From assembly GCA_963844965.1 (NCBI GenBank), contig CAWJQC010000004.1, positions 64,001 to 128,000 on the forward strand: a stretch of 64,000 bases of DNA, given 5' to 3'. Below, piece by piece: positions 23,830 to 62,719 of the stretch. The DNA comes from an uncultured bacterium (lineage in GTDB: Bacteria > Patescibacteriota > Minisyncoccia > UBA6257 > 2-01-FULL-56-20). The notes under the pieces are model-generated. The model had not been told where the DNA came from and did no database searches. It worked only from the letters and a program-made list of their open reading frames with translations. Both the position numbers and the translations under genes were made by a program. The stretch's first letter is position 1; every line of letters starts with the position of its first letter.

Positions 23830-23902
23830 GTCCCTGTAGCTCAACGGATAGAGCGTGTGGCTTCGAACCACAAGGTTGCAGGTTCAAATCCTGCCAGGGA
23901 CG
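23830..23902 (+). tRNA. tRNA-Arg (anticodon TCG)
   Basis: Hand-folded cloverleaf: acceptor GTCCCTG/CAGGGAC, D-arm GCTC-AACGGATA-GAGC, anticodon arm TGTGG-CTTCGAA-CCACA, T-arm GCAGG-TTCAAAT-CCTGC, discriminator G, no encoded CCA. It is flanked by the inverted repeat CCCACCTTTG / CAAAGGTGGG. Confidence 0.85.
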
Positions 23903-31231: not shown

Positions 31232-33913
31232 ATGAGTGGGATAAAAATAAATCTTTCTCTCAGCGAAATCCCAGGCATCGGCCCGCGTTTTCTGGAACGG
31301 CTGGGAAAACTCGGCATAAAAACCGTCCGTGATCTCATTTATCATTTTCCGGCCCGCTACGAGGATTTCTCCCAGATATACAAAATTTCCGACGTTGAGC
31401 CGGGGGAACAGGTAACAATACGTGGCGTTGTTGAAGACACCAAACTGCGGCGGACTTGGAGAAAACACATGACAATCGCCGAAGCCCTGATCCGCGACGA
31501 TTCCGGAACGATACGCGCCATCTGGTTCAACCAACCATATGTTTTGAACACTCTGCGGGTCGGGCGCACGGCGAATTTCGCAGGCAAAATATCCATATCG
31601 GACGAGGACGAAATTTATTTGAGCCACCCGGCTTATGAAATCGTCGGCAGTCGGGAGTCGGGAACGGAGAAGCAAGAAACAAAACATACAGCGCGGCTCG
31701 TCCCCATTTATCCCGAAACGCGCGGCCTCACATCCAAGGGGTTGAGATATCTGATCCAGCCAATTCTGAAAAACAGCGAACAGCTGGAGGAATGGCTGCC
31801 GCCGGAAGTTCTGCGCGAAAATAATTTTCCCGAAATAAACCTTGCGCTCAGATCCATACACTTCCCCGAAAAAACCGAGGATGCTCTTGTCGCGAAAAAA
31901 CGCTTCACTTTTGAAAACCTGTTCCTGCTGCAACTCGCCAATCTTGAACAAAAATTGAAACTCGCGCGCGAAAAAGCGCCAGTGATCAAAACCGACATAG
32001 AACACCTGAAAAAAATGATCTCGGAACTGCCATACGAACTCACGTTTTCGCAAAAGAAATCATTGTGGGAAATCATCCAGGACCTCGCCAAAAAACAGCC
32101 GATGAACCGCCTGCTCCAGGGCGACGTGGGCTCCGGCAAGACGGTTGTCGCGGCGCTCGCCGCGGTAATTACCGCGGAAAACGGGCTGCAGACCGCGTTT
32201 ATGGCGCCAACCGAGGTTCTCGCGAGACAGCATTTTGAAACATTGAAAAAATTATTCGCCGGAATTCCCTCGATCCATCAACCCGTAGTTGGGCTTCTCA
32301 CGTCAAGCGAAGCAAAAATCCTCTACGCGACAGACCTTGAATCAAAAATCAAAAAACCGGAGTTGCAGGAAAAAATAAAAAACGGCGAGGTAAAAATAGC
32401 CATCGGCACGCACGCTTTGATACAAAAAGACGTGGCGTTCGGCAATCTTGCCTTTATCATCATTGACGAACAGCATAGATTCGGCGTCTCACAACGAGCT
32501 GCGCTCGTTCGCGGACAGACGCAGAATGATAATACGCGGACAGACGCTGAACAACTACTATACGAAAAAACGACGTTTGAGATAAGAAAAAGTCTGTTTG
32601 AGGTGAGAAAACAACTGGGCCTTGGTCATAAAGAAGTGGTGTATCAGAAAGCATTGGAGGAGGAGTTCAAGAAATCCGGTGTAATATTTGAGAAAGAAAA
32701 GAAAATTCCTGTCGTTTATAACAAGAAAAAGATTGGCGTTTATCAACCGGATTTTGTCATAGATAATGAAGTAATTTTGGAACTTAAGGCTCTTCCCTTT
32801 ATCGGCGGCATCGAAAAAAAACAGCTGTGGAATTATTTGAGGGGTTCGGATTACAAACTCGCGCTTATGGCAAACTTTGGACCGGAAAGATTATCCATAG
32901 AGCGGGTAGTATACGATATTGCGCGGAGTCGGCGGCTGTCAGCGTCCGGTCAGCAACTGTCCGCGCCTATCCCCCACCTCCTCTCAATGTCCGCCACGCC
33001 AATCCCACGCACGCTCATGCTCACCGTCTTCGGCGATTTGGATATATCGCTCATCACCGAACTTCCCGCCGGCAGAAAAAATATCGTAACAAAAATAATC
33101 CCCCCACGGGGCAGGAGCGAAGCCTATGAATTCATCCGCGGCGAAGTGAGGGCCAGCCGGCAGGTTTTTGTCATCTGCCCCCGCATTGACAAACCGCAGA
33201 CAGGCGCAGACCACACGCAGACAAACGCAGACAAGACACAGACAGACGCAGACAATTTTCAGCGGCTGTCTGCGTCAAGTCAGCGACTGTCCGCGTTAAG
33301 TCCACGTAAGTCCGCGTTAGTGTGGGAAGTAAGATCCGTGAAAGAAGAATTTGAAAAATTATCCAAGAAAATTTTTCCGGATTTGCGCGTCGCCATGCTC
33401 CACGGCCAGCTCAAGCCAAAAGAAAAAGCGGGTATCATGAAGGACTTCCGCAACTACAAAATAGATATTCTCGTTTCAACTTCCGTCGTGGAAGTTGGCG
33501 TGGACGTGCCGAACGCAACAATAATGATGATTGAAGGCGCCGATCGCTTCGGGCTGGCTCAGATCTACCAATTCCGCGGACGCGTGGGGCGCGGCGAACA
33601 CCAATCCTATTGCTTCCTGTTCACGGATTCGTCCGCCAAAACTACGCGCGAGCGGCTGCAGGCCGTCCTTGAAGCCAAGAACGGCTTTGAGCTCGCCGAG
33701 AAGGACCTGAAGATCCGCGGTCCCGGCGAATTCCTCGGCACGGCGCAGACCGGCTTTCCCGACACGGCGATGAGCGGCCTCATGAACCCGGAGCTCGTGA
33801 AAGCAAGCCGCGAAGCGGCGGCAAAAATCGTCCAAAAAGATCCGCTTTTCAAAAATTATCCGCTCCTGAAAACCAAATTAAACGAGTTCCGGAAGGAAAT
33901 CCACTTGGAGTAG
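31232..33913 (+). CDS. recG: ATP-dependent DNA helicase RecG carrying an inserted GxxExxY/PD-(D/E)XK nuclease-like domain (about 32500-32990) and a second short repeat-encoded insert (33180-33310)
   Basis: Wedge/OB N-terminus; helicase motifs GDVGSGKT, DEQHRFG, QxxGRxGR (YQFRGRVGRGEHQSY). Internal segment GHKEVVYQKALEEEF...YQPDFVIDNEVILELKA matches GxxExxY plus D-x(n)-ExK. Confidence 0.85.
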   Translation: MSGIKINLSLSEIPGIGPRFLERLGKLGIKTVRDLIYHFPARYEDFSQIYKISDVEPGEQVTIRGVVEDTKLRRTWRKHMTIAEALIRDDSGTIRAIWFNQPYVLNTLRVGRTANFAGKISISDEDEIYLSHPAYEIVGSRESGTEKQETKHTARLVPIYPETRGLTSKGLRYLIQPILKNSEQLEEWLPPEVLRENNFPEINLALRSIHFPEKTEDALVAKKRFTFENLFLLQLANLEQKLKLAREKAPVIKTDIEHLKKMISELPYELTFSQKKSLWEIIQDLAKKQPMNRLLQGDVGSGKTVVAALAAVITAENGLQTAFMAPTEVLARQHFETLKKLFAGIPSIHQPVVGLLTSSEAKILYATDLESKIKKPELQEKIKNGEVKIAIGTHALIQKDVAFGNLAFIIIDEQHRFGVSQRAALVRGQTQNDNTRTDAEQLLYEKTTFEIRKSLFEVRKQLGLGHKEVVYQKALEEEFKKSGVIFEKEKKIPVVYNKKKIGVYQPDFVIDNEVILELKALPFIGGIEKKQLWNYLRGSDYKLALMANFGPERLSIERVVYDIARSRRLSASGQQLSAPIPHLLSMSATPIPRTLMLTVFGDLDISLITELPAGRKNIVTKIIPPRGRSEAYEFIRGEVRASRQVFVICPRIDKPQTGADHTQTNADKTQTDADNFQRLSASSQRLSALSPRKSALVWEVRSVKEEFEKLSKKIFPDLRVAMLHGQLKPKEKAGIMKDFRNYKIDILVSTSVVEVGVDVPNATIMMIEGADRFGLAQIYQFRGRVGRGEHQSYCFLFTDSSAKTTRERLQAVLEAKNGFELAEKDLKIRGPGEFLGTAQTGFPDTAMSGLMNPELVKASREAAAKIVQKDPLFKNYPLLKTKLNEFRKEIHLE

Positions 33914-34179: not shown

Positions 34180-36625
34180 CTACTGCTCCATATGACCGAC
34201 AAGGGTGCATGTATAAAAGTTACCAGTGCATTGGGATGAATTAGTAACATCCCAACAAGTTGAATAAGTCTCCAGCGCGCCACTACAAGGAGTGGTATTA
34301 GCGCATGAACTGTTGTAGTAACGAATATAAGTCATATACTGCGGGCAGAAGTAAATCGGCGTCCCGCCTGTAACTTTAAGAGTGCCGGGAATGATGACGT
34401 TGCCGTTTGCTAGAACCTGTATAGCTGCTCCGGTTGTAGTAGCTGTACCAGTATTCGGCATACTGCCGCCAATACCGACGTTGCCGGCATAGTTGATGAC
34501 TAATTTATTTGATTCTGCCGCACTAGGATAATTTCCCACCATAAGCATGGCGCCCTGATTAACATCGCCCACATCGAGCAGCACCGCATCCGCATTGGTC
34601 GTAGCCGCGGTGCCGTAGAACGTGCCGGTATTGGTATCCCTGTTCTGCTCGAACTGGGTGCCGTAATCACCGGTGTTATACAAGAACGAATAGGTGGGAT
34701 TACTAAAATCGCTGTACATCTCAAGGCCGGGGCCGGTACCGGCAGTATTTGAATATGCATAAAATTGATAGTTGGCGGGCGCCGCCGCTCCCACCCCGAT
34801 TCCGGAGGTGAATAAACCTCCTCCAGTTACCGTCAGTTTCTGGGTCGGCGCCGTATTCCCGATGCCGACGTTGCCGGAGGAATTCCAAATACCGGTGCCA
34901 GGCATCGTAACGTTGCCAGTAAAGGTCGGGCTCGCTAAAAGCGCCGCTCCGGTAACCTGCGCTACCCCGTAGTCACCAGATGCCGCCACCACGGCTCCGG
35001 TTCCGCCAAATACCGAGGTGACGCCGCCGCTCGGCCAAGCCGTGATGCAATTCGCCCCGGAGATGCAATATTGAGTGGCGTTTGCGGTAACCGTTGACGT
35101 ACAGAGCGTACCCTCCGCCTGAGTTTGTGAAATACCCACCGTAGCCGCCGGAGTTGGTGGCTAATCCATAAACTCCTACGCCGTTACCTGCCGCTGACTG
35201 TCCGGCAACCCCTACCCAGTAAGAAGCGCCGACCTGTCCGCCGAGAATCCCATTCGTTGTGGCGTTGCTATTATTTCCCGTTACCGAGCCGACCCATGAT
35301 GAATTGACGGCGCTCGTGAAACTGCCTACGCCAGCAACAACCAACGGATATGCCGGCGTCGTCGTCCCGATGCCGACGTTGCCGTTCGTGATGGAGAAAT
35401 ATGGACCACCCCCCATCCCAGTGCCAAGCGCCAAATTGAGGCCATAAGATTGTGACGTCAAATCAGCGTATGTAAATGCTCCGTTGCTGGTGGTGAACTT
35501 TATCCAATCTACGTTTGACCCGTTTGTATTGTCTAGCCGTAAGGTAGACGTACTTCCACTCTGAATATCAAGTTTTGCGACCGGCGCCGTGTTCCCGATG
35601 CCGACGTTGCCGTTGTTATTTATAAACAAGGCGGGTGACGCGCCGGATGAGTCAGAACCCTGAGTCAAAAAGGCCATTGGAGAACCGTTACTGCCGATCC
35701 GGGCCCAGTTCGCAACTGCTGCCGGTCCAAGCTGTAGCAAGGCATCGGTACCGTTAGATGTCAAGTCAAACTTGGCGAATTTTGACCCGTTCACGACATG
35801 CAACGTCGTTGCCGGCGACGCCGTCCCGATGCCGACGTTGCCGCCATATGCAAGCGTCATTATTTGGGAGTACCAACTGCTGGGGTTCTGATACCCAATC
35901 GTCAAGACCGAATTATCTGACGCTGGTGCAAAAACATACCCATTATTACTGCCAGCCATATCGCGGAGCTTGAAGGCTCCAAAGACATCAAGTGTATTTT
36001 GTGGTGACGGCGTCCCGATGCCGACCGAGCCCGAGAAATACCCGCCGCCGTAGACGGAGAGGGCCTGCGGCAAGTTGCTGGCGGAGGATGTGGTAACGCC
36101 CAGAGCGGAAGAAACAAACACACTGTGGGGGAACCCGTAGGGAACGCCGGAATCGGCCTCTAGAGAATTGAACACCGCGGGCGTGACATAGCCGGCGTTG
36201 ACGGTCCCGTTAAAATTGCCGTGGATCGTGCCGTTCACGTCAAGCTGGTAGCCAGGCGACGCCGTCCCGATGCCGACAGAACCGTCATTGCGCACGACAA
36301 GTATGGGCGACGAATTCGGATAAAGGATCTTCAATGTGTAATTCGCGGCATCAGCGGACGAAGAAGCAACGATGAGGAGTTTGGTTTCCGGCAGAGGCGT
36401 GGGCGTACCAACGCCCAGATTCCCAGCCGCATTAGTGCTTACCGCTCCCGAACCGAAACCGGGGGTGGGAGGAGGAGAGGCAAACGCGTAGTAGGTAGTA
36501 GGTAGTAGGTAGTAGGTAGTAGCGAGAATGACGAAAAACAAAACGTGCGGCGCAAAACTCGGACGCACACCGTAAAACTTGCGGCGGAGCTTTTGCTGTT
36601 TTTGGAACAAATCTGCGTCCATCAT
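34180..36625 (-). CDS. Giant Sec-secreted fibre-like surface protein 1 (about 815 aa; frameshift near 35100-35160 joins ORF-track pieces 34973..36625 and 34180..35139)
   Basis: Signal peptide MMDADLFQKQQKLRRKFYG...VLFFVILATTYYLLPTTYYAFA; dozens of GNVGIGT(A/T)xP repeats; Cys-rich C-terminal domain; N-terminus and a ~150-aa internal block identical to the 40555..43680 paralog. Confidence 0.7.
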
Positions 36626-36859
36626 AATAATTTACTACCTACTACCTACTACCTACCGCTTTTAATTGTTTCGGGGCGACAATCTCATAGCTTTATTATA
36701 TAAGAACAGGGAAAGATATGTAGAAAGGGGTGTGCATAGGCGCGAAAACTGCCCGAGCGGCGGCCGCAAATTTCCCGGCCATCCGGGATATAAAAAAGGC
36801 TCTCGCGAGGAATTGCGAATTGCGAATCCTCACGAGAGCCAAACATACCGGAGGGGAAT

Positions 36860-40554: not shown

Positions 40555-43500
40555 TCATTTCAGAAGAGCGTCAACTTTTTCTTGGAGCGCGGCGTTCTGC
40601 GCCTGAAGAGCGCTGATCTCTTGTTGCTGCTCCTTGATGGATTCTATCATCGGCGCGATAAGCCCAGTATAATCCAGACCAAGGGTTCCGCTCGCGTCAG
40701 TTTCCACCAACTGCGGGAAAACCGTCTGTACATTCTGCGCGGTTAAACCGAGCTGCTCTCCACTGCCCATCAGTTTTGTATCTTTCCATTCAAAGGAAAC
40801 CGGCGTCAGTAACTCAAGCTCCGCAAGCGAACCCGACAGTGGAACTATATTCTTCTTCAAACGCTCGTCGGAGCTATTTATCCACTGCCCAGCATTGTTT
40901 GTATACTCGCCGTGGGCTCCCTGAAAGTCATACGTACTGCCGGAACCATAGACGCCGATTGCAGCAGTTGAAAACACCCCATACCCTGCGGGATTACCGA
41001 AGTATCCAGCGGAACCGTTCGCGCCCGCGGTATCCGAATATCCTTCCACCCCAACCCCAGTACCAGCGTTGTAGCCATAGACGGCGGGAAGACCATTACC
41101 AGTACCGTAGCCATAGACCCCATACCCAGTCGCACCAGCAGTGCCATAGACACCATACATAGAGCCGGTGCCATAAATCCCTGCCCCAGCTTGCCCGGCG
41201 CCACCGACGCTTAATGTTGACGCCGGTGCCGTCGTCCCGATGCCGACGTTGCCGTTCGTGATGGAGAAATATGGACCACCCCCCATCCCAGTGCCAAGCG
41301 CCAAATTGAGGCCATAAGATTGTGACGTCAAATCAGCGTATGTAAATGCTCCGTTGCTGGTGGTGAACTTTATCCAATCTACGTTTGACCCGTTTGTTTT
41401 GTCTAGCCGTAAGGTAGACGTACTTCCACTCTGAATATCAAGTTTTGCGACCGGCGCCGTGTTCCCGATGCCGACGTTGCCGTTCGTGATGGAGAAATAT
41501 GGACCACCCCCCATCCCAGTGCCAAGCGCCAAATTGAGGCCATAAGATTGTGACGTCAAATCAGCGTATGTAAATGCTCCGTTGCTGGTGGTGAACTTTA
41601 TCCAATCTACGTTTGACCCGTTTGTATTGTCTAGCCGTAAGGTAGACGTACTTCCACTCTGAATATCAAGTTTTGCGACCGGCGCCGTGTTCCCGATGCC
41701 GACGTTGCCGTTGTTATTTATAAACAAGGCGGGTGACGCGCCGGATGAGTCAGAACCCTGAGTCAAAAAGGCCATTGGAGAACCGTTACTGCCGATCCGG
41801 GCCCAGTTCGCAACTGCTGCCGGTCCAAGCTGTAGCAAGGCATCGGTACCGTTAGATGTCAAGTCAAACTTGGCGAATTTTGACCCGTTCACGACATGCA
41901 ACGTCGTTGCCGGCGACGCCGTCCCGATGCCGACGTTGCCGGAACCTAAAATTGTCACGAGATCCGTTTTCGAAGAAGCGCCCGTTTTTTCACTAAACTG
42001 GAAAGCGGTGGTGGGATTGTTATAAACATTATAAAAATCAACTTCTGCATTTCCTCCCGTATAATTCCAACCGACGGCCAGACCACCAAGGCCATCACTC
42101 ACCGGTAAAGATTGCGTGTTATATGAAGTTTTCAGGAACCCACCCTCAACATCGAGCTTGTAACCTGGTGCCGCCGTCCCGATGCCGACCGAGCCCGTGA
42201 AATATCCGCCGCCGTAGACGGAAAGCGCCTGCGGACCTACGGCACTGCCCGAAGTGGCAACCGCCAACGAAGAGGAAACGACGACGCTGGCCGGGAAAAG
42301 ATAATTGCCCGTGCTGACAACGTTTGAACCGAAATACCCGGCCGCCACGTTGCTGGCGTTCACGGTGCCACCCGAAGAAGCGCAGTCGGAACCGGTGCCA
42401 GAAACAACGCCCGCAGCGCTTACGTGCAAACACTGGATAGAACCGCTGATTCCAGAAACAGTAAGGGTGTTGGCACTTGCGCCACTGCTGAAAGTTTGAA
42501 GCGCGGTCCAGGTGTTCGCATGTCCAAGATTCAATGCGGCGGACACGGCGCCCGCGGTTGGAGATATCGTTAGAGTTCCGACGCCGCTGTCGCTGACCGA
42601 GGTTACGCTGCCGCCTGCCGCAGACCAAGAAAGCGTGCCAGCGCCGTTGTTCGTGAGCACAGTACTTGCACCGCCTTGCGCGGCCGGCCAGGAATAAGTG
42701 ATACTGTTGATTTTCGCGATGTTGCCGTTATTGTCAACCTGGAATTGACTGCTCGCGCCGACGCTAAAAAGCGACGCTGGCCCCGTCGTCCCGATGCCGA
42801 CGTTGCCGCCCGCAGTTATCCTCATTCTCTCAGCAGCTCCAGCTGAAGTGTCAACCCTAAATATAAGACCATTCGTCGCAGCGCTCGCCTTGACATCTAT
42901 AAACCCTCCCCCAGAAGAATCACTACTGAAAAGTCTCATGCCGTTAACACCGACGCTCGTATCACCTCCAAAGAATAGGTTGCCGTTGACGTTGCCTGCT
43001 GCCATAGGCAAAAGCATATTTGACGTAAGCTGAAGCTGTTGAGTTGGGTTCGCCGTCCCGATGCCGACGTTGCCGCTGAAATACCCGCCGCCGTAGACGG
43101 AGAGGGCCTGCGGCAGATTGCTCGCGGTTGTCGTTGTGATTCCAAGACCGGAAGTGATAAACACGCTGTGGGGAAACCCGTAGGGAACGCCGGAATCGAG
43201 TTGGAGAGAGTTAAACACCCCGGGCGAGATGTTGCCGGCGCTTACGAGACCGCTCACGCTGCCATAAATGGACATGCCGCTGGCGAGATTCACACTGCCG
43301 GCATTAGTAAGATTTGAAGTGCCGATACCGACGGTGCCATCGTTGCGCACGACGAGAAGCGGAACAGCAGAGCCGGGCTGGACAACCTGCAGAGCGAAAT
43401 TTGAGCTGTCGGTTGACGAAGCCACAATCAGAAGCCTCACGTTGGCGGAGGGTGTTGACGTTCCAATGCCCAGATTGCCCGCGGCGTTAACGCTTATCGC

Positions 43501-43680
43501 TCCCGAACCGTAACCGGGAGTGGGAGGAGGAGAAGCAAACGCATAGTAGGTAGTAGGTAGTAGGTAGTAGGTAGTAGCGAGAATGACGAAAAACAAAACG
43601 CGCGGCGCAAAACTCGGACACGCACCGTAAAACTTGCGGCGGAGCTTTTGCTGTTTTTGGAACAAACCTGCGTCCATCAT
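40555..43680 (-). CDS. Giant Sec-secreted fibre-like surface protein 2 (1041 aa) with peptidase-S74-type C-terminal intramolecular chaperone domain
   Basis: Same signal peptide as protein 1; GNVGIGT repeats; in-frame tandem 237-bp (79-aa) duplication at about 41237-41710; C-terminus NSSDERLKKNIVPLSG...GLDYTGLIAPMIESIKEQQQEISALQAQNAALQEKV, the S74 autoproteolysis motif SDxRLK plus a coiled coil. Confidence 0.75.
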   Translation of the reverse strand: MMDAGLFQKQQKLRRKFYGACPSFAPRVLFFVILATTYYLLPTTYYAFASPPPTPGYGSGAISVNAAGNLGIGTSTPSANVRLLIVASSTDSSNFALQVVQPGSAVPLLVVRNDGTVGIGTSNLTNAGSVNLASGMSIYGSVSGLVSAGNISPGVFNSLQLDSGVPYGFPHSVFITSGLGITTTTASNLPQALSVYGGGYFSGNVGIGTANPTQQLQLTSNMLLPMAAGNVNGNLFFGGDTSVGVNGMRLFSSDSSGGGFIDVKASAATNGLIFRVDTSAGAAERMRITAGGNVGIGTTGPASLFSVGASSQFQVDNNGNIAKINSITYSWPAAQGGASTVLTNNGAGTLSWSAAGGSVTSVSDSGVGTLTISPTAGAVSAALNLGHANTWTALQTFSSGASANTLTVSGISGSIQCLHVSAAGVVSGTGSDCASSGGTVNASNVAAGYFGSNVVSTGNYLFPASVVVSSSLAVATSGSAVGPQALSVYGGGYFTGSVGIGTAAPGYKLDVEGGFLKTSYNTQSLPVSDGLGGLAVGWNYTGGNAEVDFYNVYNNPTTAFQFSEKTGASSKTDLVTILGSGNVGIGTASPATTLHVVNGSKFAKFDLTSNGTDALLQLGPAAVANWARIGSNGSPMAFLTQGSDSSGASPALFINNNGNVGIGNTAPVAKLDIQSGSTSTLRLDNTNGSNVDWIKFTTSNGAFTYADLTSQSYGLNLALGTGMGGGPYFSITNGNVGIGNTAPVAKLDIQSGSTSTLRLDKTNGSNVDWIKFTTSNGAFTYADLTSQSYGLNLALGTGMGGGPYFSITNGNVGIGTTAPASTLSVGGAGQAGAGIYGTGSMYGVYGTAGATGYGVYGYGTGNGLPAVYGYNAGTGVGVEGYSDTAGANGSAGYFGNPAGYGVFSTAAIGVYGSGSTYDFQGAHGEYTNNAGQWINSSDERLKKNIVPLSGSLAELELLTPVSFEWKDTKLMGSGEQLGLTAQNVQTVFPQLVETDASGTLGLDYTGLIAPMIESIKEQQQEISALQAQNAALQEKVDALLK

Positions 43681-43735
43681 AATAATTTACTATCTACTAC
43701 TTACTACCTACCACCTACTACCTACTACCTACTAC

Positions 43736-44200
43736 TTACTGCTTCGCAGGCGGTCCCTGGATGGTGCCGCTTGCCACTTGCGAAGGAAGCTGCTGCGAAG
43801 GAAGTTGCTGTCCCGATGACTGAAGCGAAGAAGGGTTGGCGAATGCCTGCACAAGCTGACTGTCGTTGCGCAGGCTCGTCCAGAAAATCACCTGCTTGGC
43901 GTTCAAATGGACCTCGTCAACCGGGCCCCAGAAAGCGTTCTTGAGGGCGGAGAGTCCGAGCTGTGCCTGATTCTGCTGATTGACGCTCCTCTGCAGGAAC
44001 CAGACGTTTGTCAGACGCAGGGACGGGAACCAGCTCAGTTTGCCGAAATAGATATCACCGGTCGTAAGATAGACCGCCGAATACTCGGAAGGGCCAGCCG
44101 GATTTTTGGGAGACATGAGTTTCAAGCCGAGCCACAGGCCGAAAATCAGGACGACGAGCACAATGAGAACCAGGACAGCGATTAATTTTTTGGGCAACAT
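43736..44200 (-). CDS. Membrane-anchored hypothetical protein with Gln-rich C-terminus
   Basis: N-terminal TM LIAVLVLIVLVVLIFGLWLGL; SSGQQLPSQQLPSQ tail. Confidence 0.45.
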   Translation of the reverse strand: MLPKKLIAVLVLIVLVVLIFGLWLGLKLMSPKNPAGPSEYSAVYLTTGDIYFGKLSWFPSLRLTNVWFLQRSVNQQNQAQLGLSALKNAFWGPVDEVHLNAKQVIFWTSLRNDSQLVQAFANPSSLQSSGQQLPSQQLPSQVASGTIQGPPAKQ

Positions 44201-44933: not shown

Positions 44934-45797
44934 TTAGGTACAAGAAACGCTTGAAGTCGCAATCATGCCGCTGCCCGTAATATAAAGCCGATAGCAGGAA
45001 GCACCATTCTTCAGGATTATGCCGGACGCGCTATTGCTTATATATATATCTCCCCCGGCGACCTGAAGCGCCTGCGTCGGCTGCGAACCCATGTTCACGC
45101 CGGCGTAGCCGGTAAAATAAACATTATTTGAGCCGGGTAAGCCGAAATTGAGCACGCCGTTGACGTTACTCCAGTATTGCGTGGCAGTTCCAAGCGGCAG
45201 GCCGGTGGTTGACGATGGAAACACACCGGTATCAAAAGTCGCCGCATTCACGCGCGCAATCGCCGTCTGCAGTGCCTCCGAAAATTGCTGTGTCGCGTTC
45301 TGCGTATTGTTGGCCACAACGAATGAAACGCTCACGGAGTCGTGCCCCGGCGCGTTGGAACGCTTTATAAAAGTGAGGGAAGTAACGTTCACCCTCGGAG
45401 TTGTAAGCGGCTGCGGCGTGCCGGTAGCGGTCTGTTGCAAATATACCGTGCCAGGCGTACCGGAAGACAGATAAATGTAGGTCGGGTCCAACGAACTGGC
45501 TGCCATCCGCAACTTTAGGGTGCTCGTAGCGATATCCTGGTTTAACTCAACAAGACTTGAGCGTTCTATGTAATATTGGATCTGCTGCAACAGGAACTGG
45601 CTTTCTTGGTTCACCTCGGCGGCAGCCGACTGGCGGGATTGGATACGTATGACGGCGACCATCATCGTTATAAACGCAACCATGACTATTGCGAAGATCG
45701 CCGAAAAAGCAAGAAGTTCAATGATGGTGAAACCCTTCTTTGAACGGTAGGTGTAGTAAGTGGTAGGTGGTAAGTGGTAGGTGGTAAATTTCTTCAT
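44934..45797 (-). CDS. Type IV pilin-like / pseudopilin protein with extended heptamer-encoded leader
   Basis: KKGFTIIELLAFSAIFAIVMVAF is the class III signal (G-F-T-x-x-E) plus hydrophobic helix. It is preceded by TTYHLPPTTYYTYRS encoded by a (GGTAGTA)-type heptamer tract. Confidence 0.7.
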   Translation of the reverse strand: MKKFTTYHLPPTTYYTYRSKKGFTIIELLAFSAIFAIVMVAFITMMVAVIRIQSRQSAAAEVNQESQFLLQQIQYYIERSSLVELNQDIATSTLKLRMAASSLDPTYIYLSSGTPGTVYLQQTATGTPQPLTTPRVNVTSLTFIKRSNAPGHDSVSVSFVVANNTQNATQQFSEALQTAIARVNAATFDTGVFPSSTTGLPLGTATQYWSNVNGVLNFGLPGSNNVYFTGYAGVNMGSQPTQALQVAGGDIYISNSASGIILKNGASCYRLYITGSGMIATSSVSCT

Positions 45798-46187: not shown

Positions 46188-46331
46188 GTCTAAATTCTAC
46201 TATATCATACTACCTACCACCTACTACATACTACTTACCGTGTCCGACCACCTCTCGCGTTTTCGGCGTTACCCAAAAGCGTCGCTCGCCTACGCTCGCT
46301 CCCTCACAACCTCTCGGTTTTGAGTAATTTC

Positions 46332-48005
46332 CTACACGGGAAAACTCCCGTTTTCCCGACCCCTTTCCCTGATTTTGGGCGTCACCCAAAATCCCAACCG
46401 CCATTTCCCTCCCAACATCAATCTGGTCTGCGCTTCAAGACCTGGCAACGCGCCAAAGATTATGAGCGTCAGCGGTATAAAAATCCACTGAAGAAAATAA
46501 ATGAGGTAGTGCCGCGCGCGGAACCAGCGCGGGCGCGGAGGCAAGAGCAGAATACCTAAAATCGCCGAACTTGCGATGCCTATCATGGAAAGCGAGACGA
46601 TGAAACGCGCGACTTGCGGCAGACTGTAAGAAAGGAGCGTGTAGTTGAAACGCCTGCCGCCGATGAACACCGGCAGCCACCCCAACGCGAAGATCATGAG
46701 GGAATTCGTCGCCCAAGAATGGAAACCTTCAAGGATATTGAAGGACCAATACCATTTTTTTCTTTTCGGAATTTCCGGGTCGCGCCGGAAGCCGTCCAGA
46801 AGATACGGAATATTTTCCGCGCCCCATCCCCAGCGCCGCTGTTGCCTGTAGATATTTTTCATCGTGGCCCAGAAAGTCGGCGCCGCGGGCGCGTCCATGG
46901 AAACCGGGTAAAGAAGGGGCTCAACGCGAAAATCGCCGTGATAGTGGAGATAGCACTGCCAAAAAATCCTTGAGTCCTCGGAGACAACGTCCTTATGCCA
47001 AAAACCGACGTCAATCAGCGTTTTCAGGGGAATTGACTGCGAAGAAAAAGAGGTCAGACGTTCCGGGCGCGACTGCTGCATCATCTGCCAGAAGGTTGAC
47101 GAAAAAGAAACGACGCGCGCCAAAGCCGGCGTCTCGTAAACGTTGTTCATGAAAAGCGGCACCGGCTGGTAAATCGCACGCTCGCGATCCTCCGAAGACA
47201 AAAAAACGTAGGCAAGCCGCCCGAAATATTCCGGGAAAACCTGCGTGTCAATGTCAAAAACCGACACTAAGATATTTTCATATCTTAACGCGGACTTACG
47301 CGGACTTAACGCGGAACTACGCGGAAAAACTTCTGCATTAGTCTGCACTTGCCCGCCTAAATTTCCTTCGGAAACTTTGGCGGGTAAATCTGCGTTAGTC
47401 TGCGCATTGACCAATGGGTCAATTATTAATTCTTTGGCGTGTGCCGCCGCCCACGCCTCATTGGAACCTTTGCCGGGAATTTCACCGGCTAAATTCCGCG
47501 GATGGACAGTGACAAGAAACCTGAAAAATTTATCGGCGAATTCTTTTTTTATTTTTTCGGCGACCGCTCTGGCGTCTTCCCCACCCGCTTCCTCCGTCGC
47601 CAGCACGACCAAAAGCTTATCCAGCGGATAATTCACGCGAACCAAGCTCTCAAAACTTCCGCGAACCACTTCATAGGGCTCTTTGTACATCGGAAGAATA
47701 ATAAGGTGATACACTTCCGACCATGACAATGACTTATGACGATGACCGCTCAAATTATTGTTATCGTTATTGTCATTTGTCATAGTCCGCAATTTTTCCA
47801 GCCAATCCACTCTCAGGTTTTTCCTCATCGCCGAAAAAGTTGAGCGCAAGTGCAGAGAGAGATAAATCGTTTTCAGGAGCCAGTAGATGTCAAAGAGTAT
47901 GATAAAAACCGCGACGGCGGCGGGCAGCTTCCACGACAGAAAGACCATCAAAAATAAAGTGAGCCAGGCAAGACCTCCGGGAAGAATTTCAAAAAAACGG
48001 TGCAT
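46332..48005 (-). CDS. Membrane glycosyltransferase family 2 (processive-type, QxxRW motif) with an in-frame repeat-element insert at about 47270-47420
   Basis: N-terminal TMs; LVVLATEEAGGED, FDIDTQ (DxD-like), QQRRWGWG, C-terminal TMs. The insert encodes QTNADLPAKVSEGNLGGQVQTNAEVFPRSSALSPRKSAL. Confidence 0.65.
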   Translation of the reverse strand: MHRFFEILPGGLAWLTLFLMVFLSWKLPAAVAVFIILFDIYWLLKTIYLSLHLRSTFSAMRKNLRVDWLEKLRTMTNDNNDNNNLSGHRHKSLSWSEVYHLIILPMYKEPYEVVRGSFESLVRVNYPLDKLLVVLATEEAGGEDARAVAEKIKKEFADKFFRFLVTVHPRNLAGEIPGKGSNEAWAAAHAKELIIDPLVNAQTNADLPAKVSEGNLGGQVQTNAEVFPRSSALSPRKSALRYENILVSVFDIDTQVFPEYFGRLAYVFLSSEDRERAIYQPVPLFMNNVYETPALARVVSFSSTFWQMMQQSRPERLTSFSSQSIPLKTLIDVGFWHKDVVSEDSRIFWQCYLHYHGDFRVEPLLYPVSMDAPAAPTFWATMKNIYRQQRRWGWGAENIPYLLDGFRRDPEIPKRKKWYWSFNILEGFHSWATNSLMIFALGWLPVFIGGRRFNYTLLSYSLPQVARFIVSLSMIGIASSAILGILLLPPRPRWFRARHYLIYFLQWIFIPLTLIIFGALPGLEAQTRLMLGGKWRLGFWVTPKIRERGRENGSFPV

Positions 48006-54306: not shown

Positions 54307-57104
54307 ATGCCCGAAGAATTTCCTACGCGCTACGACATAAAGGAAGTTGAAACGAAAATCTACGACCTATGGGAAAAGTCTGGGTTTTTCAATCCCGATG
54401 TTTGCGTTGAAAAAGGCGCGACGAAACCGGACGCCGAACCTTTTTCCATCGTCCTGCCGCCGCCGAACGTAACCGGCACCTTGCACATCGGCCACGCCTT
54501 TGAGGACGCGATCCAAGACACCGTTGTCCGCTACGAGCGCATGCGCGGCAAGCGGACGCTCTGGGTTCCCGGGACCGACCACGCCGCCATCGCCACGCAG
54601 GCGAAAGTGGAGGAACTTCTGCGCAAGGAAGGGAAAACGAAATACGACCTCGGCCGGGAGGAATTCCTGCGGCGCGTGAACGAGTTCGCCAAAAATTCTC
54701 ATGACATCATAATCCGCCAGATAAAACGGCTCGGCGCTTCGCTTGATTGGGGCCGCGAGGCATATACGCTTGATGAAAAACGAAATCTCGCCGTCCGCAC
54801 CGCCTTTAAAAAAATGTACGACCTCGGCCTCATTTACCGCGGCGATCGTATCGTGAACTGGGACCCGAAGCTACAGACCACCGTCTCCGACGACGAGGTG
54901 GAATGGATAGACGAAACGACGCCTTTCTACTATCTGAAATATGGGCCGTTCGTCATCGGCACGGCAAGACCGGAAACGAAGTTTGGCGACAAATACGTCG
55001 TCATGCATCCGGACGACGAACGCTATAAAAAATATAAACACGGCGAAAAGATAGAACTTGAATGGATAAACGGGTCGGTCACGGCAACAATTATCAAGGA
55101 TAAGGTCATTGACGTGAATTTCGGCACGGGCGTGATGACAATCACACCATGGCACGACATGACGGACTTTGACATCGCGGAAAGGCATCGCCTGGATAGG
55201 GAGCAGATAATCGACCTGCGCGGCAAACTGCTGCCCATCGCCGGCGAATTCGCCGGAACGCCTATCGCCAAGGCCCGGCCGCTCATTATTGAAAAACTAA
55301 GAACAAAGGGTCTCGTGGAAAAGATTGACGAACATTACGCCCATCGCGTCGCCACGAACAGCCGCGGCGGCGGCCTCATCGAACCGCAGATCCTCAAACA
55401 ATGGTTCGTCAAGGTAAACTCCAAGTTCCAAATCCCAATTTCCAACCTAAAAGGGATAAAAAGCGGCCAAGAGGTGACGCTCAAGGAACTTATGAAAAAA
55501 GTCGTGGAGTCGGGGCAAATAAAAATCATACCCGGACAGTTTGAAAAAATTTACTATCATTGGATAGACAACCTGCGCGACTGGTGCATCTCGCGCCAGC
55601 TTTGGTTCGGGCACAGAATTCCGGTGTGGTATTGCCTCGCCTGCGGCGAGCCGCAAGTTGAACCGAAAATAAAATCGCGATGGTTCCTGGTGCGGCACGG
55701 AGAAACAGACTGGATCAAAGAGGGGCGGCACATGGGACATAAAGAGGTTCCCATGAATGAAACCGGCAAGCAGCAAGCGATGGTAGCCGGCGAACGGCTC
55801 GCAAACGAAAAAATTGATCTGATAATTTCTTCCACCACCATGCGCTGCAAAGAAACCGCCGAAATTATCGCGAAAAAACTGGGTGTCAAAATTATTTTTG
55901 ACGAACGTCTGCGCGAGCGCGGCAGTGGCGAATGGGAAGGACTGCTGCATGCGGAAATCAGGGAAAAATACAAACCTCTGGAGCAAAAATATGGACCGAG
56001 GAGTGGAACAAGCGCGCGCGCTATGAATTCAAACCGCCGGGAGGAGAAAATTGGCTGGAACTTGAAAAGCGCGTAATTCAATCGTTCAAAGAGCACAAAC
56101 TTCGATACGCCGACAAAAATATCGCGATTGTCACCCACGCCGGTCCGATCAGGATCCTGGAAAAAAATCTTAAAAACAAATCATTTGAAGAAGTGGTGGG
56201 ATTAATACCCGAGAATGCCGAGATTGCTAAGCTTTCAATCGCAACTGCTTCCTGTAAAAAATGTGGCAGTGATACTTACGAGCAGGATCCCGATACTCTG
56301 GATACCTGGTTCTCCTCCGCTATGTGGACGTTCTCAACTCTCGGCTGGCCTGAAAAAACCTCCGACCTCAGAACCTACCATCCAACCTCTTTGATGGCGC
56401 CGGGGTATGAAATCCTTTTCTTCTGGGTGGCGCGGATGATACTCATGAGCGGCTGTCTTTTGGGAGAAATCCCCTTCCGCACGGTTTATCTCCACGGCAT
56501 TGTGCGCGACAAGCAGGGCAAGAAATTCAGCAAATCCAGCGGTCACGCGCTTGACCCCCTGGAACTAGCCGACAAATACGGAGCGGACGCCCTGCGCATG
56601 GCTTTAATTGCCGGAGCGGCGCCGGGAAACGACGTGCAATTTGACGAGAATAGGGTCAAGGGCTACAGGAATTTTTCAACCAAGATATGGAACGTAGCGC
56701 GGTTTGTTTTACTAAACAAACCGCCGCAGACAGACGCTGACAAGACGCGGACAGCCGCGGACATTGCTGGCCGACCAGAGATAAAGGAGTTTGAGGCAAT
56801 TAAATCGGAAATAACGAAACATCTTGATGAATACGAACTGCATCTCGCAAGCGAAAAGATTTACCACTACTTCTGGCACACTTTCGCCGACAAAATAATT
56901 GAACAGGAAAAAGCCAACCTGCGGACAGCCGCCGACAAGACGCAGACAGACGCAGACATTGCGAGACGGGCAGAATCCTATGCCCTACTGGGATACATTC
57001 TCGTCGGTTCGCTTAAACTACTCCACCCTTTCATGCCGTTCGTAACAGAAGAGATTTATCAAAAATTTGAACTAAATAAGCTTCTCTTGACCGAAAAATG
57101 GTAA
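54307..57104 (+). CDS. valS: Valyl-tRNA synthetase with an inserted histidine-phosphatase (PGAM-like) domain; 1-nt deletion in an A6 run near 55987-55993 splits it into two ORF-track pieces
   Basis: PPPNVTGTLHIGHA (HIGH), GKKFSKSSGH (KMSKS), VLDTWFSS. Between WYCLACGE and CKKCGSD lies a ~190-aa block: FLVRHGETDW...SSTTMRCKETA...GSGEWEG...AIVTHAGPIRIL, the RHG histidine-phosphatase signature. Frame repair CAAAAATATGG to CAAAAAATATGG restores ...KPLEQKIWTEEW... Confidence 0.85.
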
Positions 57105-61963: not shown

Positions 61964-62719
61964 CTGGCCTCGTCCGAAAGTTTCGGATAGATAAAATCCG
62001 CAAGGGAAAAATCGGGACAAAGATTCTTTCTTGTCGCAATTCACTTGCGACGAACCGCCGCCTGCGGGACAGGGAAATTTTTTGGGATTGGAAAGACGAA
62101 TGGAAAGTAGTTACGGATTTGCTTCTCCATTTGCCCCTCGTGCATAAAGACAGCGAGCGAAGCGAGCGCGTTGATTTTGAAAAAGTTGATGCAAGTTCCG
62201 TTATGTCGCAGTTGCTGAACGCTGTACGAACCTATTTTATCGAAAATCCGAGGGATTAGCCACCGGATTTACCCCTTCATTCACCCCTTCATTCGGGTAT
62301 GCTCGGAATGAAGGGGTAGCAAGTCCTGATTGCCCTGAAAACGCTGGGCTTTTTGACTCTCGCCGGACAAAACCAGAAGTCCTACTTCACTCCGGTTTGC
62401 CTAGTCAATCACCCCGTCAATCACGATTGACTACCCTGACGGCCATTCCGCCCTTACGAGACCTCGCTTTTCTCAAAAATCCTGACCCCCGACAATACCC
62501 CTAAACGGGTCTGTGCTCAGCCCCTCAGCCGCTCACTGTTGTTCGGGCTTCGGGGCTTCGCGTATGGCGCGCCCAAATTCCTCCCCCAACCCCTCCTTTG
62601 GGGCGCGCCGAGGGCGGTTGCGGCAACCCTTGGAACAGGGTATGGTTGAGATATCCACGCATAGGCGATGAAGCTCGCCGCAACCGCCCTTAGGGGCTGA
62701 TAGCTTCTATCTCAAAAAG

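What the first reader, a model, noticed from the sequence alone, without database searches (positions are those of the whole stretch)
33180..33310. 'Empty' copy of the same inverted-arm repeat element inserted in-frame in the recG C-terminal helicase domain
CAGACAGGCGCAGACCACACGCAGACAAACGCAGACAAGACACAGACAGACGCAGACAA (9-nt CGCAGACAA units encoding TGADHTQTNADKTQTDADN) is followed after 6 nt by the inverted arm CTGTCTGCGTCAAGTCAGCGACTGTCCGCGTTAAGTCCACGTAAGTCCGCG (encoding LSASSQRLSALSPRKSAL). Together they form a ~40-aa insert between RecG motifs VFVICPRIDKPQ and VWEVRSVKEEFEKL. It behaves like a cargo-less MITE that is tolerated because the 9-nt periodicity keeps it in-frame and stop-free.
Basis: seen in the sequence. 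Interest (0 to 1): 0.8.

Follow-up and report, generated by a model that had tools for sequence, protein, structure and literature searches.

The report
Cargo-less foldback repeat translated inside recG
A 134-base hairpin-forming repeat sitting in frame inside the recG helicase gene of a tiny (Patescibacteria) bacterium is the empty shell of a widespread, apparently undescribed selfish element whose full form carries a small nuclease gene and lives, unspliced, inside the coding sequence of many essential enzymes.

Summary
Window 33188-33321 is a ~60-bp imperfect hairpin (6 CGCAGAC units, a 12-nt loop, 5 inverted GTCYGCG units) read in frame in recG. It adds ~40 residues where T. maritima RecG has a 4-residue loop. 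The unit period is 10/11 nt (21 nt = 7 codons), not 9.

The "empty MITE-like copy" reading is largely right. The same arms flank a complete, catalytically intact GxxExxY (PF13366, PD-(D/E)XK) nuclease domain 330 nt upstream in the same gene. They also occur in a GT2 gene and twice in valS within the window.

The evidence for a selfish element family:
- RecG orthologues carry full, empty, solo-arm or no element at two sites, patchily distributed.
- A second arm family (TCCGAA/TTCGGG) occupies the same sites in some orthologues.
- The GT2 site is empty here and full in another genome.
- CGCAGAC arms also flank free-standing GxxExxY genes and their deletion derivatives in Desulfobacterota, at a strict 10-nt period and in non-coding DNA.
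- Of 80 metagenomic GxxExxY loci, nearly all have inverted ~10-nt-unit arms, and 52 are embedded in frame in housekeeping genes.

I found no description of this in Rfam, PADLOC or the searchable literature. How the element moves is inferred, not shown.

The parts
31232..33913 (+). Host gene recG (893 aa), which carries two element insertions
   Evidence: ORF list. NCBIfam RecG equivalogs and Pfam RecG_wedge, DEAD, Helicase_C and RecG_dom3_C. Aligns to T. maritima RecG 1GM5.
33188..33255 (+). Element B, left arm: 6 tandem units with core CGCAGAC, spaced 10/11 nt, translated as (P)QTGADHTQTNADKTQTDADN
33256..33267 (+). Element B, hairpin loop / centre (AATTTTCAGCGG); no cargo
   Evidence: Fold. 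The 42-nt indel relative to the orthologue L120 is centred here.
33268..33321 (+). Element B, right arm: 5 inverted units (GTCTGCG, GTCAGCG, GTCCGCG, GTCCACG, GTCCGCG), translated as LSASSQRLSALSPRKSAL
   Evidence: It shares 32 of 33 nt with the right arm of element C.
32510..32551 (+). Element A, left arm (CGCGGACAGACGCAGA ... CGCGGACAGACGCTGA), translated as RGQTQNDNTRTDAEQ
32552..32920 (+). Element A cargo: a complete GxxExxY / PF13366 PD-(D/E)XK nuclease domain, in frame between RecG helicase motifs II (DEQH) and III (SAT)
32921..32965 (+). Element A, right arm (inverted units GTCGGCG, GTCAGCG, GTCCGCG), translated as ARSRRLSASGQQLSAP
47284..47404 (-). Element C: an empty copy with an extra central hairpin, in frame in the GT2 glycosyltransferase ORF 46332..48005 (NAQTNAD...VQTNAEVFPRSSALSPRKSAL)
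   Evidence: The same site holds a full GxxExxY element in L043 and a short empty one in L121.
56725..56762 (+). Element D1: a solo left-type arm (4 units) in frame in the valS anticodon-binding domain (PQTDADKTRTAAD)
56913..56958 (+). Element D2: a second solo left-type arm (about 4-5 units) in frame in valS (RTAADKTQTDAD)

Best explanation
Window 33188-33321 is a cargo-less derivative of a selfish 'foldback'-type element.

The complete element consists of two inverted arms, each an array of ~10-bp tandem units (core CGCAGAC in this family), flanking a ~120-aa GxxExxY PD-(D/E)XK nuclease gene. In Patescibacteria these elements sit in frame in surface loops of housekeeping proteins and are translated with the host protein rather than spliced out. 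The arms become disordered hydrophilic linkers (TQTNADK-type on the 5' side, S[L/P/Q]RKSA-type on the 3' side). When cargo is present, the nuclease folds as an extra domain.

Copy B has lost its cargo, or never had one. It adds a ~40-residue disordered loop between a beta-strand and a helix of RecG helicase domain 2. It is inherited vertically, at least since the split from the nearest sampled relative, while its unit number changes symmetrically at the hairpin tip.

Shown here: the anatomy, in-frame translation as judged by ORF integrity and amino-acid-level selection, the family relationship to GxxExxY elements, the patchy distribution across orthologues, and the cross-phylum occurrence.

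Inferred, not shown: that the GxxExxY nuclease mobilises the elements, whether by homing-like double-strand-break repair or by cutting the arms or a cruciform, and that the ~10.5-bp unit spacing presents binding sites on one face of the DNA helix.
For: **1. Same arms with and without cargo.**
- Element A in the same gene carries a full GxxExxY between identical-type arms.
- The GT2 site that is empty in the window is full in L043 and short-empty in L121.
- At RecG site A, 45 of 120 homologues are full, and P0071 (empty) and P0028 (solo right arm) were read by eye; the automatic count gives 4 short inserts and 71 none.

**2. Multi-copy.** There are four loci in 64 kb.

**3. Patchy distribution.**
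- The nearest RecG relatives by core identity are P0007 at 78% (site A none, site B family 1), P0022 at 74.5% (none, none) and P0002 at 73% (site A full, site B family 2).
- 39 of 120 nearest-neighbour pairs differ in state at site A, and 46 of 120 at site B.
- A second arm family (TCCGAA/TTCGGG, peptides SELSEK/FGSFGS), which travels with a distinct GxxExxY subtype, occupies the same two sites in some orthologues.

**4. Arms and cargo travel as a unit.**
- Among 80 metagenomic GxxExxY loci, nearly all have periodic units upstream whose reverse complement recurs downstream.
- The core differs between groups (CGCRGA, GCAGAA, GCGAAW, GCTGAT, ACGGAY).
- GxxExxY proteins with the same core are more alike: 61% against 52% identity, with 0 of 2000 permutations reaching that difference. 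For free-standing copies alone it is 75% against 55%.

**5. Cross-phylum occurrence.**
- A scan for three CGCAGAC units found more than 119 loci, dominated by Desulfobacterota and Patescibacteria.
- These include free-standing GxxExxY genes between arms (L024, L069) and many 140-280-bp empties that keep inner hairpins and a small palindrome (tgcccttcgggca) that, in the full copies L024 and L069, lies at the 3' end of the GxxExxY gene.

**6. Signs of adaptation to coding sequence.**
- In Patescibacteria, 24 of 25 arrays lie in ORFs of at least 293 aa, and two successive spacings sum to 21 nt in 35 of 42 cases.
- In Desulfobacterota the spacing is 10 nt in 200 of 206 cases, and arrays are mostly outside long ORFs.

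**7. Translation is real.**
- Position 4 of the heptamer is asymmetric between the arms in coding copies (chi-square p = 3e-4), in the direction Leu/Cys to Pro/Gln/Arg/Ser.
- It is symmetric in non-coding copies (p = 0.79).

**8. Structure.**
- In the AF2 RecG model, insert B (residues 654-691) and the arm peptides of A have pLDDT below 50, while the GxxExxY and RecG domains are confident.
- In 1GM5 the site is a 4-residue loop.

**9. Host range.** 20 of 20 long proteins with a GxxExxY hit are housekeeping enzymes split by the domain: LepA-type GTPase, GatB, AsnB, GT1/GT4, Wzy, RecG, transketolase, RtcB and LeuRS.
Against: - No target-site duplication was found. The bases just outside the arms (TTARC...GYTAA in Desulfobacterota) co-vary as part of the inverted repeat rather than as a direct repeat.
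- No strain-level insertion polymorphism could be examined. B is shared with the nearest sampled relative at the same boundaries, so recent mobility of this copy is not shown.
- The GxxExxY family has no assigned function (PMC3424549), and no nuclease activity on the arms is known.
- Co-divergence of arms and cargo is expected from common descent alone and does not prove recognition.
- Recurrence at the same two RecG loops could reflect selection for permissive sites rather than targeting.
- Some copies are solo arms (valS), which a simple cut-and-paste model does not predict.
Confidence: 0.75

Rival explanations
1. A functional RNA or DNA hairpin of recG itself, for example an RNase III site, a translational pause, or an antisense RNA, maintained for regulating this gene rather than as selfish DNA.
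For: - The hairpin is very stable (z -5.5 to -9.2).
- The antisense strand folds better than the sense strand in 7 of 7 coding empties (sign test p = 0.008).
- Arm complementarity is kept while the arm sequence changes between lineages.
Against: - The same arms occur in unrelated genes (GT2, valS, LepA, GatB and others), in intergenic DNA of another phylum, and around a nuclease gene.
- Many close RecG orthologues lack the feature altogether.
- No Rfam family matches.
- The sense/antisense asymmetry is explained by amino-acid selection on the right arm.
Confidence: 0.07
2. Local low-complexity expansion: a variable surface loop of RecG that grew by replication slippage and template switching, with no relation to a mobile element.
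For: - Unit number varies by multiples of 21 nt between orthologues.
- The loop is variable in length in all RecG homologues, 17-64 residues.
- The encoded peptide is predicted to be disordered.
Against: - Slippage does not explain an inverted second arm.
- It does not explain the same heptamer core and spacers in four unrelated loci of the window (32 of 33 nt shared between B and C).
- It does not explain the identical arm type around GxxExxY in the same gene and in other phyla.
Confidence: 0.05
3. An intervening sequence that is removed after transcription or translation, that is, an intron-like stem excised and religated, or an atypical intein, so that mature RecG lacks the insert.
For: - The arms would bring the two exon ends together in a long stem.
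- RtcB occurs in these bacteria.
Against: - 24 of 25 arrays in the Patescibacteria pattern-scan loci lie in ORFs of at least 293 aa, and 52 of the 80 metagenomic GxxExxY loci are embedded in frame with the downstream host sequence. That would be unnecessary if the elements were spliced out.
- There is amino-acid-level selection on the arms.
- No Hint/intein domain and no conserved nucleophile at the junctions.
- The catalytic residues are the metal-binding D..ExK of DNases, not the Tyr-His-Lys of splicing endonucleases.
Confidence: 0.05
4. Assembly artefact (collapsed or chimeric repeat).
For: Short repeats and palindromes are error-prone in metagenome assembly. The window comes from a single MAG contig (one member, one contig).
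Against: - The ORF is intact across the element.
- Independent assemblies from JGI, ENA, NCBI and Logan show the same kind of element at the same codon position in orthologues.
Confidence: 0.02

Closest known systems
Rickettsia palindromic elements (RPEs)
   Same: Short palindromic repeats inserted many times in frame into unrelated housekeeping ORFs of a reduced genome. They are translated as extra peptide segments at positions compatible with the protein fold (review PMC10969869; Ogata et al. 2000 from my own knowledge).
   Different: - RPEs have no known autonomous partner or cargo, and their arms are not arrays of ~10-bp tandem units.
- They occur in a different phylum, and no sequence relation is expected.
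- Here a nuclease-carrying full form exists, and the family also occurs intergenically in Desulfobacterota.
[quoted passage not shown]
   Same: Small, cargo-less, multi-copy elements with terminal inverted repeats shared with a larger protein-coding element. Empties look like internal-deletion derivatives.
   Different: - No target-site duplication was found.
- The protein of the full element is a 120-aa PD-(D/E)XK nuclease, not a recognised transposase.
- Transposition was not demonstrated.
Foldback (FB) transposons of Drosophila and other eukaryotes
   Same: Long inverted arms built from short tandem repeats (10-, 20- and 31-bp periods in FB, from my own knowledge). TRF reports periods of 10, 21 and 31 for the left arm here. 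Arm length is variable and there are cargo-less forms.
   Different: FB elements are eukaryotic, much longer and non-coding in context, and a homologous relationship is not expected. The resemblance is architectural only.
Inteins and homing-endonuclease genes; the non-splicing 'ShiLan' HNH insertion in a phage methylase
   Same: A nuclease gene embedded within conserved housekeeping genes, patchily distributed among orthologues. ShiLan is likewise stop-free in the host frame, has no splicing domains, and is predicted to loop out of the host protein (PMC11855218).
   Different: - There is no Hint domain and no splice junctions.
- The nuclease is PD-(D/E)XK and is read in the host frame, whereas ShiLan's HNH is out of frame.
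- The element has periodic inverted arms and abundant cargo-less derivatives, which inteins and homing-endonuclease genes lack.
GxxExxY protein family (TIGR04256 / Pfam PF13366 PDDEXK_3)
   Same: The cargo of the full element is a typical full-length member.
   Different: The family is listed with function unknown (PMC3424549). Its flanking periodic inverted arms and its in-frame residence in host genes are not part of any description I could find.

Membership tests
MITE | Small size (under ~500 bp) and no coding capacity of its own | tested here: met
   Element B is 134 nt and consists only of arms and a 12-nt loop.
MITE | Terminal inverted repeats | tested here: met
   Arms of 47+ nt that are 72% complementary. 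The stretch folds as a single hairpin.
MITE | Multiple copies in the genome | tested here: met
   Four loci (five arm sets) in 64 kb. Only 64 kb of the genome was seen.
MITE | Target-site duplication flanking the element | tested here: inconclusive
   In coding copies the boundaries are blurred by divergence. In Desulfobacterota the flanking TTARC/GYTAA bases co-vary as an inverted repeat, not as a direct repeat.
MITE | A related autonomous element with the same ends that encodes the mobilising enzyme | tested here: inconclusive
   A larger element with the same arms and a nuclease gene exists. Whether the nuclease mobilises it cannot be tested here.
Rickettsia palindromic elements | Palindromic repeat inserted in frame in ORFs and translated | tested here: met
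   Intact ORFs run across all the window copies. The arms show amino-acid-level selection.
Rickettsia palindromic elements | Sequence homology to one of the RPE families | not tested
   No RPE sequences were compared. The different phylum and a unit structure unlike RPEs make this an analogy only.
Intein | Hint domain with an N-terminal Cys/Ser/Thr and a C-terminal His-Asn followed by a nucleophile | tested here: not met
   Pfam finds only RecG domains and PF13366. Junction residues vary freely among orthologues.
Homing endonuclease gene | Nuclease ORF inside a host gene, patchily distributed among orthologues | tested here: met
   This holds for the full element (A). 45 of 120 RecG homologues have it, and 39 of 120 nearest-neighbour pairs differ in state.
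Homing endonuclease gene | The enzyme cleaves the empty allele at the insertion site | not testable with these tools
   Needs biochemistry.
GxxExxY / PF13366 (cargo of the full element) | Full-length match above the curated cut-off, with the GxxExxY motif and D..ExK catalytic residues | tested here: met
   This applies to element A only. TIGR04256 scores 108.9 bits against a cut-off of 35. The invariant E28, Y31, D67, E77 and K79 are present. Element B has no cargo.
Foldback transposon | Inverted arms composed of short tandem repeats, with variable arm length | tested here: met
   TRF periods of 10, 21 and 31. A 42-nt difference in arm length between orthologues. This is an architectural resemblance only.
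Any Rfam RNA family | Covariance-model match | tested here: not met
   There is no match at the element in the window at gathering scores, and no match in six Desulfobacterota loci at E <= 1.

The most novel reading that the evidence does not exclude
GxxExxY genes with their periodic inverted arms form a previously unrecognised, cross-phylum class of bacterial foldback mobile elements.

A ~120-aa PD-(D/E)XK nuclease would recognise arrays of ~10.5-bp units, as duplex on one helical face or as an extruded cruciform, and drive homing or transposition. In Patescibacteria these elements would have colonised surface loops of essential enzymes (RecG, LepA, GatB, aaRS, RtcB, transketolase, glycosyltransferases) as unspliced in-frame inserts.

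That would make them functionally an 'intein niche without splicing'. The arm period would be retuned from 10 nt to 10/11 nt (7 codons), and the elements would leave many cargo-less relics such as the one in recG.
Probability: 0.45. Interest if true: 0.85.

Novelty: new variant of a known kind. Interest (0 to 1): 0.68.

Why it matters
If this reading holds, four things follow.

- **A function for an orphan family.** A very large protein family of unknown function gets a biological context as the cargo of a selfish element with a distinctive, easily searchable DNA signature. The family has about 30,000 clusters at 50% identity.
- **A third way to live inside an essential gene.** Introns and inteins splice themselves out. 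This element would instead simply be translated, with flexible linkers encoded by its own terminal repeats.
- **An explanation for odd Patescibacteria proteins.** Many puzzling 'insertions' and 'GxxExxY protein' mis-annotations of housekeeping enzymes in Patescibacteria MAGs would be accounted for, for example RecG annotated as 'GxxExxY protein'. The elements would also contribute low-complexity loops to proteins in some of the smallest bacterial genomes.
- **A natural experiment.** The contrast between the 10-nt period in non-coding DNA and the 21-nt period in coding DNA shows how a DNA element adapts to living in coding sequence.

For this particular locus the practical consequence is modest: a ~40-residue disordered loop in RecG.

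Tried and rejected
- **Nine-nucleotide periodicity.** Rejected: TRF and direct spacing counts give 10/11.
- **Known RNA family.** Rfam gives no match at gathering scores over the whole window and none at E <= 1 over six Desulfobacterota loci.
- **Defence-system protein.** No PADLOC hit. PHROGs gives only a weak 'endonuclease' hit at E = 3.7e-4.
- **Phage origin.** The three-unit pattern gives only 13 hits in IMG/VR, mostly of the 11+11 spacing type that looks unrelated.
- **Literature.** Searches for GxxExxY, PF13366, the arm peptides and arm DNA, and for in-frame nuclease insertions in Patescibacteria found no description. PARCELs (PMC2996958) are a different 25-residue amphipathic repeat.
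- **Target-site duplication.** None recognisable.
- **Antisense-RNA reading.** The sense/antisense folding asymmetry is better explained by amino-acid selection on the right arm.
- **Actinobacterial hits of the pattern.** Their spacing is 11+11 or 10+10 and no inverted arm partner was evident among the arrays listed. I treated them as unrelated and did not analyse them further.
- **Two mis-framed translations** (L043 and L114) were discarded.
Full report
**1. The observation**

- The left arm has six tandem units with the heptamer core CGCAGAC (one is CACAGAC), starting at 33195, 33205, 33216, 33226, 33237 and 33247.
- A 12-nt centre follows.
- The right arm has five inverted units: GTCTGCG, GTCAGCG, GTCCGCG, GTCCACG and GTCCGCG, at 33268-33316.
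- Tandem Repeats Finder gives periods of 10, 21 and 31 nt, not 9. The units alternate between 10 and 11 nt.
- The stretch folds as one long hairpin. The RNA sense strand gives -55.9 kcal/mol (z -5.5), the antisense strand -77.6 (z -9.2), and DNA -29.3 (z -4.1). None of 200 shuffles does as well.
- Adjacent-unit patterns occur 11 and 7 times in the window, against about 0.5 expected each.
- The element lies in frame in an 893-aa ORF that is unambiguously RecG.
- Against T. maritima RecG (1GM5), the anchors ...IVYPLIEE (residue 590) and NVKSAVEMYEYL (residue 595) are 4 residues apart. In the window they are 44 apart.

**2. The same arms elsewhere in the window**

- **Element A.** 330 nt upstream in the same gene, arms of the same type (32510-32551 and 32921-32965) flank a complete GxxExxY / PF13366 domain (32552-32920). 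It sits in frame between helicase motifs II and III.
- **Element C.** An empty copy with an extra central hairpin lies in frame in a GT2 glycosyltransferase on the minus strand (47284-47404).
- **Elements D1 and D2.** Two solo left-type arms lie in frame in valS (56725-56762 and 56913-56958).
- The right arms of B and C share 32 of 33 nt including the spacers.
- No other GxxExxY copy is in the window.

**3. RecG orthologues**

120 RecG homologues, mostly labelled Patescibacteria (Liptonbacteria, Paceibacterota, Wolfebacteria), were aligned.

At site A:
- 45 carry a GxxExxY domain, always bracketed by arm-encoded peptides.
- By eye in the alignment, P0071 has an empty element and P0028 a solo right arm; the automatic count gives 4 short inserts.
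- 71 have only a ~18-residue linker.

At site B:
- 28 have both arms of the TQTNAD / S[LP]RKSA type, and 6 have one arm.
- 4 have a different palindromic insert (SELSEK...FGSFGWNSG).
- 82 have none.

The DNA of three orthologues confirms this.
- L120 (78% core identity, the closest) has the element at identical boundaries. It differs from the window by a 42-nt (2 x 21) indel centred on the hairpin tip.
- L121 and L122 have, at the same codon position, a hairpin built from ~10-nt units with core TCCGAA/TTCGGG.
- This second arm family goes with a distinct GxxExxY subtype (KIVDKDLSY) at site A in P0079, P0090 and P0064.

The states are patchy with respect to RecG core identity. The nearest relatives are none/family 1, none/none and full/family 2. 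39 of 120 nearest-neighbour pairs differ at site A and 46 of 120 at site B.

At the GT2 site, the window is empty, L043 has a full GxxExxY element, and L121 has a short empty one.

**4. Beyond Patescibacteria**

- In Desulfobacterota the arms bracket free-standing GxxExxY genes with their own start codon (L024, L069; L069 has an internal stop).
- More often they bracket 140-280-bp stretches that keep two inner hairpins and a small palindrome (tgcccttcgggca) that, in the full copies L024 and L069, lies at the 3' end of the GxxExxY gene. These are internal-deletion derivatives.
- The bases just outside the arrays (TTARC ... GYTAA) co-vary as part of the inverted repeat. I saw no direct target duplication.

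Unit spacing separates the two settings.
- Desulfobacterota: 10 nt in 200 of 206 spacings, with arrays mostly outside long ORFs (median covering frame ~82 aa).
- Patescibacteria: two successive spacings sum to 21 nt in 35 of 42 cases, and 24 of 25 arrays lie in ORFs of at least 293 aa.

**5. Generality of the arm-cargo unit**

A profile-guided scan of metagenomes returned 80 GxxExxY loci.
- 52 are embedded in frame in long ORFs: RecG site A, a third RecG site in the wedge domain, LepA between G2 and G3, ValRS, and glycosyltransferases.
- 28 are free-standing.
- Nearly all have ~10-nt periodic units upstream whose reverse complement recurs downstream, but the core differs: CGCRGA, GCAGAA, GCGAAW, GCTGAT or ACGGAY (examples read directly).
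- Proteins sharing a core are more similar than those with different cores. The figures are 61% against 52%, and 75% against 55% among free-standing copies, with 0 of 2000 permutations reaching either difference.
- The Desulfobacterota CGCAGAC-armed proteins are closer to the Patescibacteria CGCAGAC-armed ones than to the second family.

So arms and cargo are inherited as one unit. This alone does not prove that the protein recognises the arms.

A profile search of 1.84 billion representatives gives 30,362 clusters at E <= 1e-3.
- Roughly a third of the top 150 are long proteins with an internal hit.
- Roughly another third are ~265-aa tandem double domains.
- All 20 long ones examined are housekeeping enzymes split by PF13366: EF-Tu-type GTPases, GatB, asparagine synthase, GT1/GT4, Wzy, RecG, transketolase, RtcB and LeuRS.

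**6. The cargo protein**

- The AF2 model of the window domain is confident (pLDDT 95).
- E28 and Y31 of the GxxExxY motif and D67, E77 and K79 are invariant in the family and present in the RecG-embedded copy. An active nuclease is therefore plausible.
- The family is listed with unknown function (PMC3424549).
- It is not in PADLOC.

**7. Is the insert translated?**

- Every coding copy continues in frame into the downstream host sequence, including the empties. That would be unnecessary if the element were spliced out of the RNA.
- There is no Hint domain and no conserved junction nucleophile.
- Position 4 of the heptamer differs between the arms in coding copies. The left arm has A 57%, G 30%, T 8%, C 5%. 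The right arm has T 33%, C 36%, A 25%, G 6% (chi-square p = 3e-4). The non-coding Desulfobacterota copies are symmetric (p = 0.79).
- The changes turn Leu and Cys codons into Pro, Gln, Arg and Ser codons. This is selection on the peptide.
- The same asymmetry explains why the antisense RNA folds better than the sense RNA in 7 of 7 coding empties, so no antisense function need be invoked.
- In the AF2 model of the whole RecG, insert B (residues 654-691) and the arm peptides of element A have pLDDT below 50, while the GxxExxY domain and the helicase domains are confident.

**8. Interpretation**

Element B is a cargo-less member of a family of foldback-type selfish elements whose full form carries a GxxExxY nuclease.

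- It is old enough to be shared with the nearest sampled relative.
- Its arms lengthen and shorten symmetrically at the hairpin tip.
- It is tolerated because it sits in a surface loop and encodes a hydrophilic, disordered peptide.
- The 21-nt double unit keeps one heptapeptide register.

How the family moves is not shown. My preferred guess is nuclease-initiated double-strand-break repair (homing between orthologous alleles, with occasional ectopic insertion), with the ~10.5-bp-spaced units acting as a binding array or a cruciform substrate.

**9. Comparison with known systems**

- **Closest in behaviour:** Rickettsia palindromic elements, which are in-frame palindromes in housekeeping genes (PMC10969869), and MITEs.
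- **Closest in architecture:** eukaryotic foldback transposons, whose arms are made of 10/20/31-bp tandem repeats (my own knowledge).
- **Closest in niche:** inteins and homing-endonuclease genes, and the recently described non-splicing ShiLan HNH insertion (PMC11855218).
- It is not a member of any of these by their defining features. See the membership table.
- I found no prior description of GxxExxY elements with periodic inverted arms, or of their in-frame residence in host genes. The search covered only Rfam, PADLOC and the open-access literature, so an existing description elsewhere cannot be excluded.

**10. Verdict**

This locus is a minor relic, but it is the visible tip of a widespread and apparently undescribed element family. 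I rate it a new variant of a known kind (selfish palindromic or MITE-like elements with a nuclease-bearing parent), with moderately high interest.

Noticed in passing
window 36488-36522 / 36633-36656; also 43544-43577 / 43688-43740 and 45746-45787 / 46208-46238: A different inverted pair of heptamer arrays, (GTAGTAGG)x5 and (TACTACC)x3-7, lies ~110 nt apart and brackets the start codon of large surface-protein-like ORFs. The inner array is read as ATTYYLLPTTYY in the signal-peptide region.
   Followed up: no
window 54307-57104: The valS-like gene is split into two overlapping ORFs (54307..56076 and 55932..57104). A His_Phos_1 (PF00300) domain is inserted between the two CxxC pairs of the ValRS zinc knuckle, and the frameshift lies inside that inserted domain. 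No repeat arms flank it.
   Followed up: partly
L181:943-3363 (metagenome contig Ga0210017_1000734): A third RecG insertion site. A full GxxExxY element with TQTEAD / ESVSS arms sits in the wedge domain, between ...ICLSHPTHEL and KHTGRLVPVYPET.
   Followed up: no
proteins P0187-P0318: About 45 of the 150 best GxxExxY profile hits are ~260-275-aa proteins with two GxxExxY stretches in tandem. These are possible single-chain pseudo-dimers of the nuclease.
   Followed up: no
P0225 and P0232: GxxExxY splits the RtcB RNA ligase in P0225. LeuRS P0232 carries both a GxxExxY and a NUDIX domain as inserts.
   Followed up: no
L069:1451-1840: The Desulfobacteraceae free-standing GxxExxY between CGCAGAC arms has an internal stop codon (GFL*KVYES), so it is a decaying full element.
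   Followed up: no
window 62655-62716: A fluoride riboswitch (RF01734, 47.8 bits). Six matches to the tRNA model were also found, at 23830, 23915 (30.2 bits, just above the 29-bit cut-off), 30489, 48102 and 60095.
   Followed up: no
window 41223-41712: A 228-nt unit repeated 2.1 times at 98% identity inside the surface-protein gene region.
   Followed up: no
names given by sources: Several full-length RecG helicases are annotated in public records simply as 'GxxExxY protein' because of the embedded domain. One is labelled Spirochaetia and another Nanoarchaeota.
   Followed up: no
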